A DNA stretch of 64,000 nt from a virus. Positions 6,820 to 54,296 of the stretch are shown one piece after another; the first letter of the stretch is position 1, and each line of letters opens with the position of its first letter. Location: positions 12,983 to 76,982 of IMG/VR virus record IMGVR_UViG_3300034272_001354; one strand, 5' to 3'. The notes under the pieces are model-generated. The model was given only the letters and a program-made list of their open reading frames with translations, did no database searches and was not told the DNA's origin. A program made the translations under genes and the position numbers.

Positions 6820-7968
6820 ATGAAAAGAGAAACAATACAACTGTTCAAAGTTTTTATGTCTGAAAACGCAGCACCTGAAGTTGCCAAAGTATTAAACAGT
6901 GGATATATTGGTCAAGGTGAAAAGGTTGAACAATTTGAATCTAAATTACAAGATTTCTTTATGAAAGATTACATTGTAACATTAAACTCCGGTACTAGCG
7001 GACTTCATTTAGCTTTAGATTTATTAAAAAAATCTTCAGGTAAATGGCCAGGATTAGAAGATGGTGATGAGGTATTAGCAACATCATTAACGTGTACAGC
7101 GTCAAATTTTCCAATTTTAGCAAACAATTTAAATATTAAATGGGTAGATGTTGACCCAACAACATTAAATATGGATTTAGATGACTTGTCAAGAAAAATA
7201 AGTCCAAAAACCAAAGCCATTATGTTAGTACACTGGGGTGGTTATCCAAATGATTTAGATAGAATTAAAGAAATTCAAAATAAATGTTTTGAGTTATATG
7301 GGTTTAAACCGGCGGTTATTGAAGATGGTGCTCACTCATTTGGTTCTAAATATAAAGGCAAATATATTGGTAACCATGGTAATATGACTATGTATAGTTT
7401 ACAAGCTATTAAACATATCACATCCATTGATGGTGGTTTATTATTATTACCTCACCAAGAATTATATGATAGAGCGAAATTATTAAGATGGTACGGTATC
7501 GACAGAAATTCAAACAGAAAAGATTTTAGATGTGAGGCGGATATTCAAGAGTGGGGTTTTAAATTTCATATGAATGATGTTTGTGCAACAGTTGGTATGG
7601 AAAATTTAAAACACGCAGAGGAAATTGTTGGTAGACATCAATCTAACGCAAAATTTTATGATGAAAATCTACAAAATATTCCGGGATTAACAACATTAAC
7701 TAGACATGAGGGTCATGAATCAGCATTTTGGATTTATAGTATGTTAGTTGAAAATAGAGACGGTTTTTATAAACACATGAAAGATTGTGGTATTGTAGTT
7801 TCTCAAGTTCACGAAAGAAATGATAAACACACTTGTGTTTCTGATTATAAATCATCATTACCTACTTTAGATAGAATTATTGGGAAAGTTGTTTCAATAC
7901 CTGTTGGATGGTGGGTTACAGATGAAGATAGACAATACATTGTTGATTGTATTAAAAAAGGTTGGTAA
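6820..7968 (+). CDS. DegT/DnrJ/EryC1 family PLP-dependent sugar aminotransferase
   Basis: NSGTSGLHLAL, VHWGG, IEDGAHSFG, SLQAIKHITSIDGG (PLP lysine). Confidence 0.9.
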   Translation: MKRETIQLFKVFMSENAAPEVAKVLNSGYIGQGEKVEQFESKLQDFFMKDYIVTLNSGTSGLHLALDLLKKSSGKWPGLEDGDEVLATSLTCTASNFPILANNLNIKWVDVDPTTLNMDLDDLSRKISPKTKAIMLVHWGGYPNDLDRIKEIQNKCFELYGFKPAVIEDGAHSFGSKYKGKYIGNHGNMTMYSLQAIKHITSIDGGLLLLPHQELYDRAKLLRWYGIDRNSNRKDFRCEADIQEWGFKFHMNDVCATVGMENLKHAEEIVGRHQSNAKFYDENLQNIPGLTTLTRHEGHESAFWIYSMLVENRDGFYKHMKDCGIVVSQVHERNDKHTCVSDYKSSLPTLDRIIGKVVSIPVGWWVTDEDRQYIVDCIKKGW

Positions 7969-7969
7969 T

Positions 7970-8917
7970 ATGATTAATTCAGAACAAAGAAATCTTTTGA
8001 ATGAAATGATTTTGGATTTAAATAACTCCAAAATTTCAGAATATAAACCTAGTAGTGTGTGTTGGGAAAGTTTATCAAACCAATTTGAGATATTTTTCAA
8101 TGAAATTGGTATTAATAATGTTCAAAACCAAATAAGGTATAATAATTTATTTTCTTTTATACATGATATTCCAGGATTGTCATTTCAGTCTGCTGTATGG
8201 AGTTACTATAGTTATTTGAAATTAAAAGATAAGTACAATATATTAACTCTAACAACCGCTTTACCATCAGGTAATTCTAATTTAGATTATAACCCATCTG
8301 AAAAAATAGATGGTAGACCTAAAGATAGAGAAAATAAATTAATTAATTGGGATTATTTAATTTCTTTAGATACGATTATGACTATCTTGGAATGTAATCC
8401 TGATTTATTAAACAAACCTGTAACTATTTGTGAAGTAGGTGCTGGATGGGGTCGAGTAGGTTATTATTTAACACAAATTAATAATAAAATATCTTATAAC
8501 ATATTTGATATCCCGCACACTTTATTAATATCGTCTGATTATTTGTATAATAATGTTAAACACATTAAAGTATTTAAGTATTTAGAAACTAAACAAAATA
8601 ATTTTACAACCAAAAAATTACTGTTAAAAAATCCGGGTATAAATTTTTATACACCAAATAAGTTAGAAGATTTTGAAGATAAGTGTTTTGATTTATTTAT
8701 TAACATAGCGTCATTTCAAGAAATGAATATTGAACAAGTGACAAATTATTATAAAAAAATTAATCAGTTGTCAGATAATTTTTATAATCAACAAAGATAT
8801 AAAGATTTAGATATGGAATATAATAAATATCCATTGTACGATAACTGGAAAAAGGTGTTTGATAAAGACATAAACTTTCACCCATTATGGTTTGAGCAAT
8901 ATTTTAAAATAAGTTAA
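7970..8917 (+). CDS. putative sugar O-methyltransferase (class I SAM-dependent)
   Basis: ICEVGAGWGR, FDIP, DLFINIASFQEM; start taken at ATG 7970. Confidence 0.7.
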   Translation: MINSEQRNLLNEMILDLNNSKISEYKPSSVCWESLSNQFEIFFNEIGINNVQNQIRYNNLFSFIHDIPGLSFQSAVWSYYSYLKLKDKYNILTLTTALPSGNSNLDYNPSEKIDGRPKDRENKLINWDYLISLDTIMTILECNPDLLNKPVTICEVGAGWGRVGYYLTQINNKISYNIFDIPHTLLISSDYLYNNVKHIKVFKYLETKQNNFTTKKLLLKNPGINFYTPNKLEDFEDKCFDLFINIASFQEMNIEQVTNYYKKINQLSDNFYNQQRYKDLDMEYNKYPLYDNWKKVFDKDINFHPLWFEQYFKIS

Positions 8918-43232: not shown

Positions 43233-45278
43233 ATGACAGAATCTATGGATGGTGGAAGTAACGGTGGAAATAAAGCAGTTAAAACTGATTCATCAACTCC
43301 CGTATTAGACAATTTTAGTAGAGATTTAATAAAACTTGCCGAAGAGGGTAAACTTGACCCGGTGGTTGGTAGAGAAAGAGAAATCACTCGAATTGCACAA
43401 ATCCTTTCACGTAGAAAGAAAAATAACCCAATTATTATTGGTGAACCTGGTTGTGGTAAAACCGCAATTGTTGAAGGTCTTGCCATTATGATTTATAATG
43501 GGGATTGTCCAAGAAACTTAATGGACAAAAGAATTGTGTCATTAGATATGACATCAATTGTTGCGGGAACAAAATATCGTGGACAATTTGAAGAAAGAAT
43601 GAAAGTCATTATCGAAGAACTTCAAAACGAACCAAACATCATTGTATTCATTGACGAAATCCACACAATCGTTGGAGCAGGTAATTCATCAGGTTCAATG
43701 GACGCGTCGAATATCTTCAAACCAGCACTTGCTCGTGGAGAGATTCAATGTGTTGGGGCAACCACTTTGGATGAATACAGAAAAAACTTTGAGAAAGACG
43801 GAGCGTTAGAAAGACGTTTCCAAAAAGTTGTTGTGGATGCTGCAACCAAAGAAGAGACATTAATCATCCTTAAAAATGTAAAAGACAAATACGAGAACTA
43901 CCACAAGGTAACTTATACTGATGAAGTATTGTCTGTATGTGTTGATTTAGCAGACCGTTATATCACAGATAGAGAATTCCCGGACAAAGGATTCGACATT
44001 ATTGATGAGGTTGGAGCGAGAAGTCAGGTAGATGTGAAAATGCCAGATTCAATTGAAAAATTGAAACTTCAAGCGTCAAACATTAAACAAGAAAAAATTG
44101 ATGTAGTAAAACAACAACGATACGAGGAGGCGGCAAACCTACGTGATAAAGAAAAACGTATCTTAACCAAACTTGAAGCTGAAAAGAAAAAGTTTGAAGA
44201 AGAACTTCTTACACACAAAAAAGAAATCACTTTGGATTTAGTTTATGAAGTGGTTTCCAATATGACAAAAATTCCAGTTACCAAATTAAATGCTGATGAA
44301 ACCAAACTATTGTCAGAGATGGAAACAAATCTATCTGATAAAGTTATTGGACAATCTGAAGCAGTTTCAAAGATTGCAAAATCAATCCGTAGAAACAGAA
44401 TTGGTATTAAAGACCCGAACAAACCAATCGGTTCATTCATCTTTTTAGGTTCAACAGGTGTTGGTAAAACATACTTGGCAAAACAACTAGCGAAACAAAT
44501 GTTCGGTAGCGAAGATAATATGATTCGTGTGGATATGTCCGAGTACCAAGAAAAACACACCATTTCAAGATTAATTGGAGCACCTCCGGGATACGTTGGA
44601 TACGATGAAGGTGGACAATTAACCGAACAAGTGAAAAACAAACCTTATTCTGTAATTCTATTTGATGAAATTGAGAAAGCAAACAAAGATATCTTTTCAA
44701 CACTTCTTCAAGTATTAGACGATGGTCACCTTACCGATGGTATGGGGAGAAAGATTAACTTCAAAAATTGTGTCATCATTATGACATCAAATGTTGGAGC
44801 TAAAAAATTACAAGATTTTGGTTCAGGGGTTGGTTTTAAAACAGGAGCTAGTTCTTATGTAGAAGAAGAATACAAACGTGAGACACTTAAAAAAGAACTT
44901 AAGAAATTCTTTACTCCGGAATTCTTAAACAGAATTGATGAGGTTGTTATCTTTAACTCTTTGGTTAAAGAAGACGTTAAGAAAATCGTTAAATTGGAAT
45001 TGGACAAACTATCTAAAAGATTGGTTGGATTGAAATATAACATAACATTTGATGAAAGTATTTTAGAACTAATCTCTGAAGTTGGATTTGATGAAACCTA
45101 CGGGGCAAGACCAATCAAAAGAGCTATCCAAGATAAGATTGAGGATTTTGTATCTGAAGAGATTATCAAAGGAAATATGGTGGAGGGTGTTCCATACACC
45201 CTTGTATCCGTAGAGAAAGAAGTGGTGGTCAAAACAGAACCTACCAAAAAGACAAGAAAGAAAAAAGAGGACAATTAG
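43233..45278 (+). CDS. clpC: ClpC-like AAA+ unfoldase lacking the N-domain
   Basis: Two NBDs ([14 protein letters not shown]; [15 protein letters not shown]), short UVR-type M-domain, VGF ClpP-binding loop; TACTTTTG promoter at 43169. Confidence 0.85.
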
Positions 45279-45784: not shown

Positions 45785-46606
45785 TTAAAACAATTTAAAA
45801 TATTTACTATCAACTTTAAACGGATACTTCTTATATCCTAACCCCTCAATCATCTTTTTACCGGTCTCTATTCCACTATAAACATCTTCGACAACAACAT
45901 ACTCATTTGGGGTGTGATAGTTGTAATAACCTATCGCAAAATTGATACAGGAGAAATCAAAGATATTCTTTAATGCGTAAACATCTGTATATGGGTGAGA
46001 TTGATAGTCATGTCTACCGTTAAACCCTTCGTTTAATGCTACATCACAAATTTTAAAAAATTCACTATCTCTTTCAAACAATTGTGTTCCCATACAATAT
46101 TCACTAACCATAACATTTCCCGGAGCATCAAACTGAATACCATAACCAACATTTAAAAAGAAATTTGGGTCGGCCTTTTTAGAACCATGACATCCGGTTT
46201 CTTCTGATACAAAGAATGCCGCTTTTAAATTTGGTAATTCTTTTAATAATTCCAAACAAGCAAAAACCCCACATTTATCGTCACCACCAATACCTGTTGG
46301 GTGTCCAAAATGATTATACGCTTTTAGGGATGGTTTTAAAACTTTTTGTTCGTTAGGTAATGTTTCCTCACGAATAATAATGTTATCCAAAGAGTGGACC
46401 GTGTCGGTATGAGCAATCACACAAGGGAAATATTCAATAAATTCATCGGTTTGTTTAACCGCATAAATATTATTATGCTCATCCATATTAAATGGAATCC
46501 CATTGTCTTCTAACCATTTGATTAGAAACTCAACCATAAGGTCTTCTTGATATGTTTTTGTCGGAACTGACAAAACTTCTTTTAATAATTCATAATCTCT
46601 ATCCAT
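45785..46606 (-). CDS. M20/M28-family zinc peptidase-like protein
   Basis: AHTDTV, GGDDKCG, SEETGC, YHTPNE. Confidence 0.8.
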   Translation of the reverse strand: MDRDYELLKEVLSVPTKTYQEDLMVEFLIKWLEDNGIPFNMDEHNNIYAVKQTDEFIEYFPCVIAHTDTVHSLDNIIIREETLPNEQKVLKPSLKAYNHFGHPTGIGGDDKCGVFACLELLKELPNLKAAFFVSEETGCHGSKKADPNFFLNVGYGIQFDAPGNVMVSEYCMGTQLFERDSEFFKICDVALNEGFNGRHDYQSHPYTDVYALKNIFDFSCINFAIGYYNYHTPNEYVVVEDVYSGIETGKKMIEGLGYKKYPFKVDSKYFKLF

Positions 46607-48093: not shown

Positions 48094-48489
48094 GGGGGTA
48101 AAATGGTATTGACTGGCATATCTACTTATTTGGGGCACGTAGTGAGAAGTTTCCTATCACTTAAATCTATGGATGACAAAATTATAAATGGCAACATTTT
48201 AAACAAAATGGCTCTAGTAGGTCTTGTACGTCAAGACGAGCTTGTGAACGTAGCGTAAGCAAACACACATTCGGGCCGGTGAGCATTACGCCTAGGAACA
48301 GAAGCTTTTACAAAGGTGTGGTACCTATCCGAAAAGGTACAAGTGGAGGATTAGTTCTCAATAAACCGAACCACTCAAAAATAAGGGAATTGTGAAATTT
48401 CGGATTGTTAGCTTAAACAATGTCCTAAACGTGTAGTCCTGAACACTTAGGGTGAGCAACACGAGGCTTCGAAGCCTCTACCTCCACCA
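48094..48489 (+). ncRNA. ssrA: tmRNA
   Basis: 5' GGGGGTA pairs with 3' TACCTCC-A-CCA, giving G3.U70; T-arm GAGGC-TTCGAA-GCCTC; internal tag ORF 48190-48258; smpB nearby; terminator at about 48494-48520. Confidence 0.92.
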
Positions 48490-48923: not shown

Positions 48924-49316
48924 TTACATTTTAACTTCTTGGTGACCCCCACCCCATAAATAACCATCACCATAATTTGTACAAATTTCTTCACCGGGTT
49001 GGATTGTTTGTAAAGCATAAAATTGGAATGCTCTTTTTGTTGGATGATTTCTCCACATAGCATTATTTGTATCTGAATGATTATATATACACCCATAACC
49101 TAATGGAATCACATATTCTTCCCAATTTGGTCCTTGAGGATAACAAAATCTATAATCATCAAGTAGTTTTGATTTTTCCCATTTTTTTGTGGGTAATTTT
49201 ACTAAATGACATTCTTCAATTACCTCATCTTTTTGAATAACGTCAATAGCAAAGACCCCCATTCCTTTTCCTGGTGAGGGTTTAATTTCTATTTTAGTAG
49301 GTATTAATAAATTCAT
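48924..49316 (-). CDS. SET-domain protein (lysine methyltransferase fold)
   Basis: GMGVFA, IYNHSDTNN, GEEICTNYG. Confidence 0.85.
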   Translation of the reverse strand: MNLLIPTKIEIKPSPGKGMGVFAIDVIQKDEVIEECHLVKLPTKKWEKSKLLDDYRFCYPQGPNWEEYVIPLGYGCIYNHSDTNNAMWRNHPTKRAFQFYALQTIQPGEEICTNYGDGYLWGGGHQEVKM

Positions 49317-49341
49317 AATTTAATTATAATAAAAAAAGGAA

Positions 49342-49779
49342 CTATTTCAAGTCCCTTTTCATATCTCTTTCAATATCCCGAGATTTAATACTATCTCGTT
49401 TATCGTGGAGTTTTTTTCCTTTGGCGAGAGCAATCTCCATCTTAACCAATCCGGTGTCATTTATGAAGACACGATAAGGAATGATGGTTGTCCCGTTTAT
49501 TAACTCACGTTCCAACTTATTTAGTTCTTTTTTCTTGGCCAATAGTTTTCTATCTTTAACTGTTTCATGGAATGACCCATAACCATAATCGGAGATGTTC
49601 ATTCCCTTTATAAACAATTCCCCATCATTAAAATAACAATACCCTTCAGATATGGAGACCTTTCCTTGACGGATGGACTTCACCTCTGAACCAACTAATT
49701 TGATTCCCACAATTAGGGTTTCTAAGAATGAATACTCAAACTTGGCTTTCTTATTGACTATGTTAATTGATTTTTTCAT
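49342..49779 (-). CDS. smpB: SsrA-binding protein SmpB
   Basis: NKKAKFEY, GIKLVGSEVKSIR, RKLL, ALAKGKKLHDKR; start MKKSINIV at 49779. Confidence 0.95.
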   Translation of the reverse strand: MKKSINIVNKKAKFEYSFLETLIVGIKLVGSEVKSIRQGKVSISEGYCYFNDGELFIKGMNISDYGYGSFHETVKDRKLLAKKKELNKLERELINGTTIIPYRVFINDTGLVKMEIALAKGKKLHDKRDSIKSRDIERDMKRDLK

Positions 49780-49845
49780 AGGACAAAGATAATATAAAAA
49801 TTGGTATAAACAAAAAAAGGTGTCACATTTCTGTAACACCTTTTT

Positions 49846-50730
49846 GGCTAATACGATGAGAATACTCGTGTTATTAAGAATCTTCGGAAGGATTATTGTT
49901 TCCCTTCTTTTCCACCATCTTTTGAATGGTAATCCTCAGTGACAATTGGTTAGACCAATTACTCCTTGAGATATCATCTACTCTCTTATTATTCAACTCT
50001 CTTCAACCTTGCGGGCTGACTCCGGATTCGACTCCGTAGAGGTTTTTCGTAAGAATACATTCTGACTTGCGGTCATCCTGTGCAACGAACGGCTCGTTAC
50101 TATGTAGTCACCTTGTCGATGATACCTGACAGACACTTTTGCTTATGTATCTTTTTAGTTTTACTTAAAATGTCCTATAAGTTAATTGTGTTGTGGATGT
50201 GTCCAAGTAGAGGTCTGTCGTAAGCTTCGTTATCTTTTGAACAACAAAATACTAATCTACTCGGTAGAGTGTCCCCACTCTCATATTTTAAGATTACTTC
50301 AAACTGACATCTTGGTAGATGTTTCGTAAGGTTAGTAGCGACACCACTCGTTCTCTAACTTACCTTTCGGTTTTAAGTCCCCTTTGATATTGGAATCCGT
50401 AATTATAAGGTTGGATGACCCTATTTCTCACATAATCCCTATCGGTTATTCTTGTTGGTGTTCCCACCTCAACCTGACGACCCACATCGCCCGGTCACCC
50501 AACCACTTTCTCTAAAGCGTTGCCCTCAATACTGAAGGTCAGGTGATATCCGACTTGTATACTCGAGCTCCCTTTCAGAAGCCGCAGAACCAATAACACT
50601 AATGATTCCACTTTATCCCGGTTTCCCGGTTTATTTAAGGATGATATACCACCCATTATCGTTTCTTACATCACCGAAGTGTGTAATGGATAATCTAAAA
50701 TTTCTAAGAACGTTTAAGGTTTCCCTCAAT
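49846..50730 (-). ncRNA. large structured non-coding RNA, GOLLD-like
   Basis: About 880 nt with no ORF of 60 aa or more, GC-enriched, many GNRA/UUCG-capped hairpins; bounded by promoter 50738-50745 and terminator 49812-49845; next to tRNA-like genes. Confidence 0.65.
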
Positions 50731-50805
50731 TGTTTTACAAAGATAAGTGATTTTTTTCATTTGTCAAGCACTTTATAAAACTTTTTTTTAATTTTTTTTT
50801 ATTTG

Positions 50806-50896
50806 TGGTATCGGCGGGGTTCGAACCTGCGGCACAGAGTCTTTCGTTACTCTTGCTCTACCAAGGAAGATAAATCTTCCACTGAGCTACAATACC
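50806..50896 (-). ncRNA. tRNA-like RNA with D-loop hairpin insertion and 8-nt non-canonical anticodon loop
   Basis: Acceptor GGTATTG/CGATACC, D stem GCTC/GAGC, TTCGAAC T-loop; anticodon loop AACGAAAG. Confidence 0.65.
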
Positions 50897-50908
50897 ATGT
50901 AAAAAAAA

Positions 50909-50981
50909 TGTGGGTGTATGCTCTACCATCTGAGCTACGGATAAATCCGGAGGGATTTGAAACCTCGACACGACACCCACA
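50909..50981 (-). ncRNA. circularly permuted tRNA mimic (Y RNA/YrlA-like architecture)
   Basis: 9-bp terminal stem TGTGGGTGT/ACACCCACA, T-arm, loop-closed acceptor CGGA-TTTA-TCCG, D-arm GCTC-AGATGGTA-GAGC. Confidence 0.65.
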
Positions 50982-51072
50982 CTAATCTTTCAATATTTTT
51001 ATGAACTTTATTTCTTGTACAAAGATAAGACATTTATTTTTATCTGTCAAACTTTTTTTTAATTTTTTTTTG

Positions 51073-51174
51073 TAGTCAGGACAGGATTCGAACCTGTTCC
51101 GTCTTTACCATAAAGAGTCGGCCTTACCGTTACTCAACCTTGGGGAGGTGATACCAACCAATGGTCTCCTGACT
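51073..51174 (-). ncRNA. tRNA-like RNA with aberrant core
   Basis: Acceptor AGTCAGG/CCTGACT and T-arm ACAGG-TTCGAAT-CCTGT are intact; no canonical anticodon arm. Confidence 0.55.
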
Positions 51175-51329
51175 ATGTTTCGTTAATGTTAAAAACTGAT
51201 TCAATCCTCCTAAAAAACACTAACTTCCTACTTACTCTATTATAGGCTCGGCCGTCCTCTTTTAAATATAGTTTTACCTGAAACTTCTTTGGGTTGTTGA
51301 TTGACCACTCCCACTTACTCAAGTAGTTT

Positions 51330-53270: not shown

Positions 53271-54296
53271 TTACAATTTTTTAAATTCAGGTCTGATTAG
53301 GTTCCATATGATTTCAGAGTAATCTTTTTTATCTAACATTCTAAATAGAATTCCTGACAAATGTTTTGGTTGGGTTGATACCCACTCAGCAAACTCTTTT
53401 CTATCTGTGATAGGTTCTTTGTCGTTATATTTCCCATACATCATATAATCAAACTTTTTACCTGCATCTTCAGATATTTGGAAGTAAGAATATCTCAAAT
53501 CTTTAACATAGTTTTGAATTTTTTTGTAAAATTCATCCGGAACATCTTTTAATAGTTCCATGACATCCTCACCATTTTTAAGATATTCCCAAATACCGGT
53601 TGTGGTAACATTAGTCATAATTTTGTGAAGACGTAGATATTCAACCCCTTTAACTTTGATTCTATCTCCATTAGAGAACTTTACCACAAATCCTTCTTGG
53701 TCATCTTTAATCATGGATTTAAGTTGATTAAAATCCTTAATACCATCATATTTTTTAACCACATCAAACCCCCATTGTGACCAAATCTCAGAATCGGTTT
53801 CTTTCCCGTTCTTATCAAATGTCCCCAATAGAATTAGTTTCTCATCATCACCATAATCCAAAACAATTCTGTTCTCCGGATAGATAATTTCAAAACAAAA
53901 AGTCAAATGTCTAAACATAATATCTTTGTTATATTTTTTAAGGATTTCTGTCGCCTTGATTGCTTGGTCAGAAGTGAATGAACCACGAGTGGCTACCACC
54001 CATTGACCTTGATACCAAAACACAATCCCTAATGAACCATCCATTTTTTCAAATACTTCAAAGTTTTCAGTTGGGGTAAATTTACCTTCTTCTATATTAA
54101 AGAATTTTTGGAATGGTATTGCAACCATATTCCCTTCGTTATCGGTAACTAAACCTCTACACATCAGGGTCACCTCATCCCATAGGTTCTCGAACTGAAC
54201 TTTTTCAGTGTAGTTCCATATGGTTAATGGAAGTGTTGGATGTACTTGTTTGTAAAGTAATCCGTCTTCGTAATATTTGTTTAGTTTTTCTAACAT
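53271..54296 (-). CDS. RNA ligase 1 (T4 RnlA-like)
   Basis: CRGLV, KFFN, EKMDGSLG, ATRGSF, FEII, EGFVV, KVK. Confidence 0.9.
   Translation of the reverse strand: MLEKLNKYYEDGLLYKQVHPTLPLTIWNYTEKVQFENLWDEVTLMCRGLVTDNEGNMVAIPFQKFFNIEEGKFTPTENFEVFEKMDGSLGIVFWYQGQWVVATRGSFTSDQAIKATEILKKYNKDIMFRHLTFCFEIIYPENRIVLDYGDDEKLILLGTFDKNGKETDSEIWSQWGFDVVKKYDGIKDFNQLKSMIKDDQEGFVVKFSNGDRIKVKGVEYLRLHKIMTNVTTTGIWEYLKNGEDVMELLKDVPDEFYKKIQNYVKDLRYSYFQISEDAGKKFDYMMYGKYNDKEPITDRKEFAEWVSTQPKHLSGILFRMLDKKDYSEIIWNLIRPEFKKL

What the first reader, a model, noticed from the sequence alone, without database searches (positions are those of the whole stretch)
49846..50730. About 880-nt ornate non-coding RNA with its own promoter and terminator
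Seen on the minus strand: hairpins CAC-TTCG-GTG, CCGG-GAAA-CCGG, ACC-GAAA-GGT, GAGTG-GGGA-CACTC, TGAC-CGCAAG-TCA, AATTGGT-CTA-ACCAATT, and no ORF of 60 aa or more. Known: GOLLD RNAs are ~800 nt, occur in lake metagenomes and phages near tRNAs, and have unknown function. Inference: a GOLLD member or a new large RNA class, here placed between SmpB and tRNA mimics.
Basis: partly seen in the sequence, partly recalled or inferred. Interest (0 to 1): 0.75.

Follow-up and report, generated by a model that had tools for sequence, protein, structure and literature searches.

The report
Phage GOLLD RNA gene, known class
The gene-free 0.9 kb is a complete, expressed copy of GOLLD, a giant phage RNA already known to build RNA-only cages, so it is not a new RNA class; its ribosomal-RNA-style leader is a modest extra clue to how it is made.

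Summary

It is GOLLD. The 3' half matches Rfam RF02032 end to end (306.5 bits, cut-off 150). The 5' half is the same domain as in env-38, the GOLLD solved as a 14-subunit cage. In 43 non-redundant relatives it shows very strong covariation (96% of cells paired, 79 of 105 pairs with compensatory changes, 0 of 500 shuffles as high).

Contigs from four metatranscriptomes of four studies cover only the GOLLD core, not the flanking SmpB gene or tRNA-like units.

The gene lies in a 77-kb fragment of a roughly 300-kb Bacteroidota jumbo phage. It has its own TTGACA/TAtcTTTG promoter and its own terminator.

Its leader resembles an rRNA leader: a small hairpin followed by a boxA-like element. That element is present in 74 of 79 relatives. 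The exact decamer lies upstream of 4 of 6 16S genes in three Bacteroidota chromosomes.

SmpB adjacency is confined to a subclade (5 of 59 loci); tRNA adjacency is general.

Verdict: a new member of a known class with modest interest. The scan has reported the same kind of locus before on related phage DNA.

The parts
50738..50767 (-). Promoter: TTGACA (50767-50762), spacer, Bacteroidota -7 box TAtcTTTG (50745-50738). The transcription start is inferred near 50733.
   Evidence: 10 of 12 match; sequence. A TAnnTTTG box lies a near-fixed 26-28 nt upstream of the boxA-like element in most of 45 relatives. The same promoter type precedes the tRNA-like units (51050-51022) and smpB (49791-49784).
50714..50729 (-). 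Small 5'-terminal leader hairpin UUGAGG-GAAA-CCUUAA
   Evidence: MFE and centroid; 16 of 21 unique relatives have a hairpin here, with compensatory changes, mean -4.6 against -0.5 kcal/mol for shuffles.
50702..50711 (-). boxA-like element GUUCUUAGAA, one mismatch to the family and rRNA-leader form GUUCUUUGAA
   Evidence: present in 74 of 79 loci, 53 of them exact; the exact decamer lies 84-133 nt upstream, on the same strand, of 4 of 6 16S genes in three Bacteroidota chromosomes.
50655..50694 (-). Variable leader stem: AUUAUC (50694-50689) pairs with GAUAAU (50660-50655) and encloses the UUCG-capped hairpin
   Evidence: MFE. The alignment shows the UUAUCC and GAUAAU blocks conserved around a hairpin that varies in length.
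50265..50656 (-). GOLLD 5' domain (the cap of the cage in env-38)
   Evidence: 105 pairs, 79 with compensatory changes, 96.3% of cells paired against 78.3% shuffled and about 40% slid; the env-38 construct starts at the equivalent of 50656 with the same sequence blocks.
49853..50264 (-). GOLLD 3' domain (the ring of the cage); full Rfam RF02032 match
   Evidence: 306.5 bits, gathering score 150, E 8.8e-87, model positions 1-416 of 416.
50143..50202 (-). Internal A-rich linker (60 nt, 52% A, 7% G), the counterpart of the disordered linker inside the env-38 cage; no tRNA inside
   Evidence: family range 42-70 nt; 0 of 69 loci have a tRNA inside GOLLD; for the env-38 linker.
50023..50036 (-). L21a hairpin CGGA-GUCGAA-UCCG with a self-complementary CG centre (50030-50029), the counterpart of the symmetric inter-subunit kissing loop B8
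   Evidence: 16 of 53 unique relatives have the CG (UCGA) loop, about 32 the GC (CGCAAG) loop and 3 CGGCAG; the published GC/CG covariation at env-38 nt 656-657.
49812..49845 (-). Intrinsic terminator: hairpin GGUGUUACA-GAAA-UGUGACACC plus a U run, 8 nt after the end of the GOLLD model
   Evidence: 14 pairs; sequence.

Best explanation
This is a complete, independently transcribed GOLLD RNA gene of the env-38 type in a fragment of a roughly 300-kb jumbo phage that infects Bacteroidota. Shown here: the primary transcript unit runs from a host-type promoter (TTGACA / TAtcTTTG) to an intrinsic terminator, about 920 nt. About 804 nt of it (50656-49853) are the two conserved GOLLD domains, joined through a 60-nt A-rich linker. 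RNA matching this core is present in aquatic and sediment metatranscriptomes, while the flanks are not. Inferred from the solved env-38 structure: the RNA self-assembles, without protein, into a 14-subunit cage. The 5' domains form the caps, the 3' domains form the rings, and the A-rich linker lies inside. The self-complementary L21a loop needed for one inter-subunit contact is kept here. Inferred from the leader: a small 5' hairpin followed by a boxA-like element recruits the host NusB/S10 rRNA-type antitermination complex. This would let a long untranslated transcript escape Rho-dependent termination and be made in large amounts like a stable RNA. The cellular role of the cage is not established. 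My best guess, at about 0.3, is that it holds or shields translation-related RNA (tRNAs or tRNA-shaped RNAs) or ribosomal particles during infection. The basis is its general linkage to tRNA genes and the published ribosome pull-down.
For: Family identity: Rfam GOLLD match over the full model at 306.5 bits, cut-off 150. No other family appears in the region at gathering level, or on the 5' half at E up to 1.

5' domain: it is homologous to the env-38 construct printed in the supplement of PMC12286853. Across 43 relatives under 92% identical there are 105 pairs, 79 with compensatory changes, 96.3% of cells paired, and 0 of 500 shuffles reach any measure.

Cage features: the linker and the L21a loop are conserved as published.

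Expression: 13 metatranscriptome runs hold about 35% of the words of the 1.8-kb stretch. Contigs of four runs from four studies cover only 49855-50664, with perfect pieces of 197-377 nt. One 737-nt piece bridges both domains. There is no cover on smpB, the terminator or the tRNA-like units.

Phage and host: the window is an IMG/VR virus record, 26% complete. The closest complete relative is 308.6 kb with terminal repeats. The nearest cellular SmpBs are all Bacteroidota, and the promoters are of the TAnnTTTG type.

Leader: a boxA-like element in 74 of 79 loci. The exact decamer is in 4 of 6 16S leaders of three Bacteroidota chromosomes. The hairpin before it is conserved. This matches the rrn leader layout described in PMC13753749.
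Against: Cage assembly is extrapolated from env-38 and was not tested on this sequence. The window's boxA-like element has one mismatch (UUA for UUU), shared by only 4 of 79 loci, so it may bind NusB less well. No binding or antitermination assay exists for any GOLLD. The RNA evidence comes from assembled contigs, which cannot give strand, ends or level, and part of the depth comes from related GOLLDs of other phages. RNA contigs stop at 50664 and 49855. Whether that reflects processing or divergence among strains is open; one contig continues into a relative's leader, which favours divergence. The function of the cage remains unknown. SmpB adjacency is not general (5 of 59 loci), so it gives little functional support.
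Confidence: 0.9

Rival explanations
1. A new class of large ornate RNA, unrelated to GOLLD.
For: The Rfam model covers only the 3' 412 nt, and no Rfam family matches the 5' 470 nt.
Against: The GOLLD Rfam model is by design the 3' domain only. The 5' half aligns block for block with the 5' domain of GOLLD env-38. It is joined to a GOLLD 3' domain in every complete relative examined.
Confidence: 0.01
2. Two separate elements: a GOLLD 3' domain, and upstream an unrelated RNA or regulatory region.
For: In the solved structure the two halves form separate domains, and GOLLD 5' halves are known to vary between lineages.
Against: There is one promoter and one terminator. RNA contigs bridge the 50264 boundary: 49909-50300, 49928-50664 and 50052-50285. 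The same junction is kept in 66 full-length relatives.
Confidence: 0.02
3. A decaying, non-functional GOLLD copy.
For: The boxA-like element carries a mismatch. The phage record is a fragment, so a second copy elsewhere cannot be excluded.
Against: The window's sequence aligns through all 22 helices of the 5' domain, and the 3' model alignment has only a few non-canonical pairs. Near-identical RNA is present in several metatranscriptomes. Relatives 90-96% identical keep the structure.
Confidence: 0.03
4. A protein-coding region with short genes.
For: ORFs of 53 and 58 aa overlap the region.
Against: Substitutions among relatives are compensatory in helices, not synonymous in a frame. The region matches an RNA family.
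Confidence: 0.01

Closest known systems
GOLLD RNA env-38 (Rfam RF02032; cryo-EM homo-14-mer with D7 symmetry, Kretsch et al. 2025, PMC12286853)
   Same: Same two-domain architecture and the same sequence blocks in both halves. Both have an A-rich internal linker, the GAAA-capped hairpin at the L11a position, a self-complementary L21a loop, an aquatic metagenomic phage origin, and a position near tRNA genes.
   Different: The core here is about 804 nt against 833 nt. L11a is a minimal ACC-GAAA-GGU hairpin rather than an extended stem. L21a carries the CG rather than the GC variant. The native leader and promoter, which are absent from the env-38 construct, are visible here.
GOLLD of Lactobacillus brevis prophage and of Mycobacterium tRNA arrays (Weinberg et al. 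2009, as cited; PMC6582537)
   Same: Same 3' domain family, mobile-element context, tRNA neighbourhood, and expression as a discrete RNA.
   Different: Those lineages have other 5' halves and often a tRNA or pseudo-tRNA inside the linker. None of 69 loci of this lineage has one. The host phylum here is Bacteroidota and the carrier is a jumbo phage.
ROOL RNA (phage RNA that forms an 8-mer cage)
   Same: Phage-borne, lies near tRNA islands, forms an RNA-only cage with an internal disordered linker, and has no known function.
   Different: No sequence or secondary-structure relation; there is no ROOL hit in the window.
rrn operon leaders with boxA (NusB/S10 antitermination); boxA before suhB and CRISPR operons (PMC13753749)
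   Same: A small 5' hairpin immediately followed by a U-rich boxA-like element close to the transcription start of a long untranslated transcript. The decamer is identical to the one in Bacteroidota 16S leaders.
   Different: It sits in front of a phage non-coding RNA, not rRNA. The window's copy has one mismatch. Function was not tested.

Membership tests
GOLLD (RF02032) | Covariance-model score above the curated gathering score over the whole model | tested here: met
   306.5 bits against 150, model positions 1-416 of 416, E 8.8e-87; same result on the whole record.
GOLLD (RF02032) | The 3' domain helices and the long-range pseudoknot keep pairing | tested here: met
   The cmscan alignment shows only four flagged non-canonical pairs and none in the pseudoknot arms.
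GOLLD (RF02032) | Large structured 5' domain joined to the 3' domain, here of the env-38 type | tested here: met
   Sequence blocks are shared with the env-38 construct. 105 pairs, 79 compensatory, 96.3% paired in 43 relatives.
GOLLD (RF02032) | Variable, poorly structured internal linker | tested here: met
   60 nt, 52% A, 7% G; family range 42-70 nt.
GOLLD (RF02032) | Self-complementary L21a loop centre (GC or CG) for the symmetric inter-subunit kiss | tested here: met
   The window has CG within UCGA. About 51 of 53 unique relatives have CG or GC.
GOLLD (RF02032) | Phage or prophage location, often near tRNA genes | tested here: met
   Virus record. There are 13 tRNAs in the window. tRNA genes lie within 1 kb in 32 of 70 (upstream) and 21 of 56 (downstream) relatives.
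GOLLD (RF02032) | Expressed as an RNA | tested here: met
   Metatranscriptome contigs of four studies cover the core only. Contigs give no strand or ends.
GOLLD (RF02032) | Assembles into a homo-14-mer cage | not testable with these tools
   No RNA structure or complex predictor was on hand. Inferred from env-38.
ROOL, OLE, RNase P RNA, group I/II introns | Match to the Rfam model | tested here: not met
   No such hit in 49800-50800 at gathering level, nor on the 5' half at E up to 1.
rrn-type antitermination leader | boxA sequence as in the host phylum's rRNA leaders | tested here: inconclusive
   The family form GUUCUUUGAA is identical to 4 of 6 16S leaders in three Bacteroidota chromosomes. 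The window's own copy has one mismatch.
rrn-type antitermination leader | Small hairpin at the 5' end directly before boxA | tested here: met
   Window 50729-50714. Present in 16 of 21 unique relatives, with covariation. The layout is as described.
rrn-type antitermination leader | Binds NusB/S10 and suppresses Rho-dependent termination | not testable with these tools
   Needs biochemistry or a reporter assay.

The most novel reading that the evidence does not exclude
In Bacteroidota jumbo phages, GOLLD is produced like a ribosomal RNA, through a host Nus-factor antitermination leader. It reaches very high levels, and its cage works together with the neighbouring translation-related RNA modules (tRNAs, non-decoding tRNA mimics, a YrlA-like RNA, tmRNA/SmpB, RNA ligase) to protect or reprogram the translation apparatus during infection. 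This would give the first functional handle on GOLLD.
Probability: 0.15. Interest if true: 0.65.

Novelty: new member of a known kind. Interest (0 to 1): 0.3.

Why it matters
GOLLD has been known since 2009, and its cage structure was published in 2025, but its function is still unknown. This copy adds no new class. It does show the native transcription unit that the structural work left out. That unit has a host-type promoter, an rRNA-style hairpin-plus-boxA leader conserved in most relatives, and, in this copy, its own terminator. GOLLD-core RNA is also present in metatranscriptomes from several habitats while the adjacent genes are not seen. If the leader is confirmed, it would explain how a 0.9-kb untranslated phage RNA escapes Rho, and it would offer a way to switch GOLLD off experimentally.

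Tried and rejected
ARAGORN for tmRNA in relatives missed even the window's own tmRNA, so the ARAGORN tmRNA counts are not used.

blastn-short with the two tRNA-like units found them only in close relatives. This is too insensitive to say they are absent elsewhere.

TROVE and RtcB were not found in the 77-kb record. The record is 26% complete, so this says nothing about the whole phage.

Searching the supplement of PMC12286853 for loop names gave nothing. Loop numbering was derived instead by counting the printed env-38 sequence.

The comparison was made by eye on short blocks.

No paper linking GOLLD with boxA was found (the hits are unrelated plant papers). The structural paper mentions no leader.

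The lack of RNA-contig cover on the leader (above 50664) and on the terminator is not taken as evidence of processing, because one contig continues into a relative's leader.

The idea that GOLLD, SmpB and tmRNA form one obligatory system was set aside, because SmpB follows GOLLD in only 5 of 59 loci.

Full report
OBSERVATION

No ORF of 60 aa or more overlaps it; the longest are 58 and 53 aa.

A promoter-like site lies at 50767-50740. With the next two bases it ends in TAtcTTTG (50745-50738), which matches the Bacteroidota -7 consensus TAnnTTTG. A strong terminator hairpin with a T run lies at 49845-49814.

Folded alone, the 888-nt RNA reaches -240.3 kcal/mol, against -210.3 +/- 5.8 for shuffles (z = -5.2).

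Downstream lies smpB (49342-49779, Pfam SmpB 160.8 bits), which has its own TAtcTTTG box. Upstream lie tRNA-shaped units.

IDENTITY

A scan of the whole window against Rfam gives a full-length GOLLD match (RF02032) at 49853-50264 (-). It scores 306.5 bits against a gathering score of 150, E 8.8e-87, model positions 1-416 of 416. No ROOL, OLE, RNase P or intron model matches there.

The Rfam model represents only the conserved 3' domain of GOLLD, so the 5' 470 nt needed a separate test. Three results show that it is the GOLLD 5' domain.

- It aligns with the region upstream of GOLLD 3' domains in two roughly 640-kb uncultured phage genomes, LR756502 and LR745206.
- Patterns built from its invariant blocks retrieve 15 and then 76 IMG/VR loci. 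In every locus examined whose stored DNA reaches far enough, a GOLLD 3' domain follows.
- The env-38 construct, whose cryo-EM structure was published, starts at the equivalent of window 50656. It shares the same blocks: the AAAUAA... and ...GGAUAAAGUGG blocks, GAGCU(C/U)GAGUA, and those that follow.

A permissive Rfam scan of the 5' half finds no other family.

COVARIATION

I took 43 relatives less than 92% identical to one another. RNAalifold predicts 105 pairs in 22 helices, and 79 pairs show compensatory double changes.

With that structure, 96.3% of cells form standard pairs, against 78.3% after shuffling and 37-42% when partners are slid by 1-3 columns. The covariation score is 0.591, against 0.238 shuffled and about 0.1 slid. 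None of 500 shuffles reaches any measure.

The 5' half is therefore a conserved, folded RNA domain, not a spacer.

CAGE-RELATED FEATURES

According to Kretsch et al. (PMC12286853), GOLLD env-38 forms a 14-subunit cage with D7 symmetry.

- The 5' domains form the caps and the 3' domains form the rings.
- A disordered linker lies inside the cage.
- One symmetric kissing contact (L21a, nt 656-657) covaries between GC and CG.

By counting the printed env-38 sequence, that dinucleotide maps to Rfam model positions 238-239. In the window the loop is G-U-CG-A-A (CG at 50030-50029). Among 53 unique relatives, 16 carry the CG form, about 32 the GC form and 3 CGGCAG.

The internal linker is 60 nt here (50202-50143), 52% A and 7% G. 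It ranges from 42 to 70 nt in the family, and no tRNA lies inside GOLLD in any of 69 loci.

These features fit cage formation, but assembly itself could not be tested.

EXPRESSION

Thirteen metatranscriptome runs from many studies each hold about a third of the sampled words of the 1.8-kb stretch 49300-51100.

I laid the contigs of four runs from four studies (lake, marine, freshwater, sediment). Cover falls only on 49855-50664, which is the GOLLD core.

- Pieces without a single difference: 49909-50285 and 50468-50664.
- A 737-nt piece spans both domains.
- There is no cover on smpB, the terminator or the tRNA-like units.

The uncovered flanks argue against contaminating DNA as the source. 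Contigs cannot give strand, ends or level, and part of the depth comes from related GOLLDs.

One contig continues beyond 50664 into a leader like that of relative L033. The stop at 50664 therefore reflects divergence rather than a mapped 5' end.

GENOME AND HOST

The window is part of a 76,982-nt IMG/VR virus record that CheckV estimates to be 26% complete. The closest complete relative is 308,574 nt with direct terminal repeats.

The nearest cellular SmpB proteins, at 55-60% identity, are all from Bacteroidota. This agrees with the TAnnTTTG promoters. The carrier is therefore a jumbo phage of Bacteroidota.

LEADER

Earlier notes of this scan on related phages mentioned an rRNA-style leader. 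I treated that as a lead and tested it.

- A decamer, GTTCTTTGAA or a one-off variant, lies upstream of the core in 74 of 79 loci (53 exact). It sits a near-fixed 26-28 nt after the -7 box. The window has GTTCTTAGAA at 50711-50702.
- In three complete Bacteroidota chromosomes the exact decamer lies on the same strand 102, 133, 133 and 84 nt upstream of 4 of the 6 16S genes. The background is 9-18 hits per strand per genome.
- Between the inferred start and this element, 16 of 21 unique relatives have a small hairpin with compensatory changes. The window's is 50729-50714.

A small 5' hairpin directly followed by boxA is the rrn leader layout described for E. coli and B. subtilis. BoxA is also known before other long untranslated transcripts (PMC13753749).

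I infer that GOLLD transcription uses the host NusB/S10 antitermination system. This is untested, and the window's copy has one mismatch. I found no paper that links GOLLD with boxA.

NEIGHBOURHOOD

The window also carries:

- a tmRNA at 48094-48489 (+), 50.3 bits, with well-aligned ends;
- SmpB, and a SET-domain protein;
- a ClpB/ClpC-like ATPase, and an M20-like peptidase;
- a T4 Rnl1-like RNA ligase;
- 13 tRNAs.

In the wider env-38-type family, SmpB follows GOLLD in only 5 of 59 loci. tRNA genes lie within 1 kb in 32 of 70 loci upstream and 21 of 56 downstream. The tRNA link is general. The SmpB link belongs to a subclade, so these look like separate modules.

VERDICT

This is a textbook full-length GOLLD: a new member of a known class.

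The scan has already reported the same kind of locus on related phage DNA. The added value here is the native transcription unit, the tested boxA-type leader and the metatranscriptome evidence.

Function remains unknown. I give about 0.3 to a role in holding or shielding translation-related RNA or ribosomal particles.

Noticed in passing
window 50896-50993 (-): The 'circularly permuted tRNA mimic' has a terminal stem, T arm, sealed acceptor hairpin CGGA-UUUA-UCCG and D arm. It matches the full length of Rfam YrlA (RF02553, the Y RNA-like tRNA mimic that binds Rsr/Ro60) at 40 bits, E 3.5e-7, below the gathering score of 69. No TROVE/Ro60 or RtcB gene is in this 77-kb fragment, and no TROVE gene in the closest complete relative. 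Another GOLLD-bearing relative (G005, 312.7 kb) has a 488-aa TROVE ORF.
   Followed up: partly
window 50805-50896 (-): A 91-nt tRNA-shaped RNA with a perfect hairpin GGAAGA-UUUA-UCUUCC inserted in the D loop, an 8-nt 'anticodon' loop AACGAAAG without U33, and no encoded CCA. ARAGORN's Pro(tgg) call reads the insert. A tRNA hit of about 90 nt at 37-40 bits recurs upstream of GOLLD in 8 close relatives.
   Followed up: partly
window 51072-51175 (-): A third tRNA-shaped unit (GUCAGGA ... GGUUCGAAUCC ... UCCUGAC) with a long insert in place of the anticodon arm. Neither ARAGORN nor Rfam calls it.
   Followed up: no
window 50780-50800 and 51051-51072 (-): The same A-rich spacer (A9-TT-A8-GTTT), followed by a TTGACA / TAtcTTTG promoter, occurs twice: before GOLLD and before the tRNA-like pair. 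It looks like a repeated promoter cassette.
   Followed up: no
window 48094-48489 (+): A phage tmRNA just over the Rfam cut-off (50.3 against 47 bits), with clear GGGGGU 5' and ACCUCCACCA 3' ends. ARAGORN misses it. The tag reading frame was not worked out.
   Followed up: partly
window 49777-49791 (-): The -7 box of smpB (TAtcTTTG, 49791-49784) ends only 4 nt before the ATG at 49779, so the smpB mRNA would be leaderless or nearly so.
   Followed up: no
L018 7880-8474 (+): In a relative, the tmRNA hit (7880-8277) is directly overlapped at its 3' end by a group I intron hit (8253-8474, 96 bits). This may be an intron-interrupted phage tmRNA gene.
   Followed up: no
window 43233-45278 (+), 45785-46606 (-), 53271-54296 (-): A ClpB/ClpC-like double AAA+ ATPase, an M20-like peptidase and a T4 Rnl1-type RNA ligase lie within 6 kb of GOLLD. 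Together with tmRNA/SmpB they form a translation-quality-control and RNA-repair neighbourhood.
   Followed up: no
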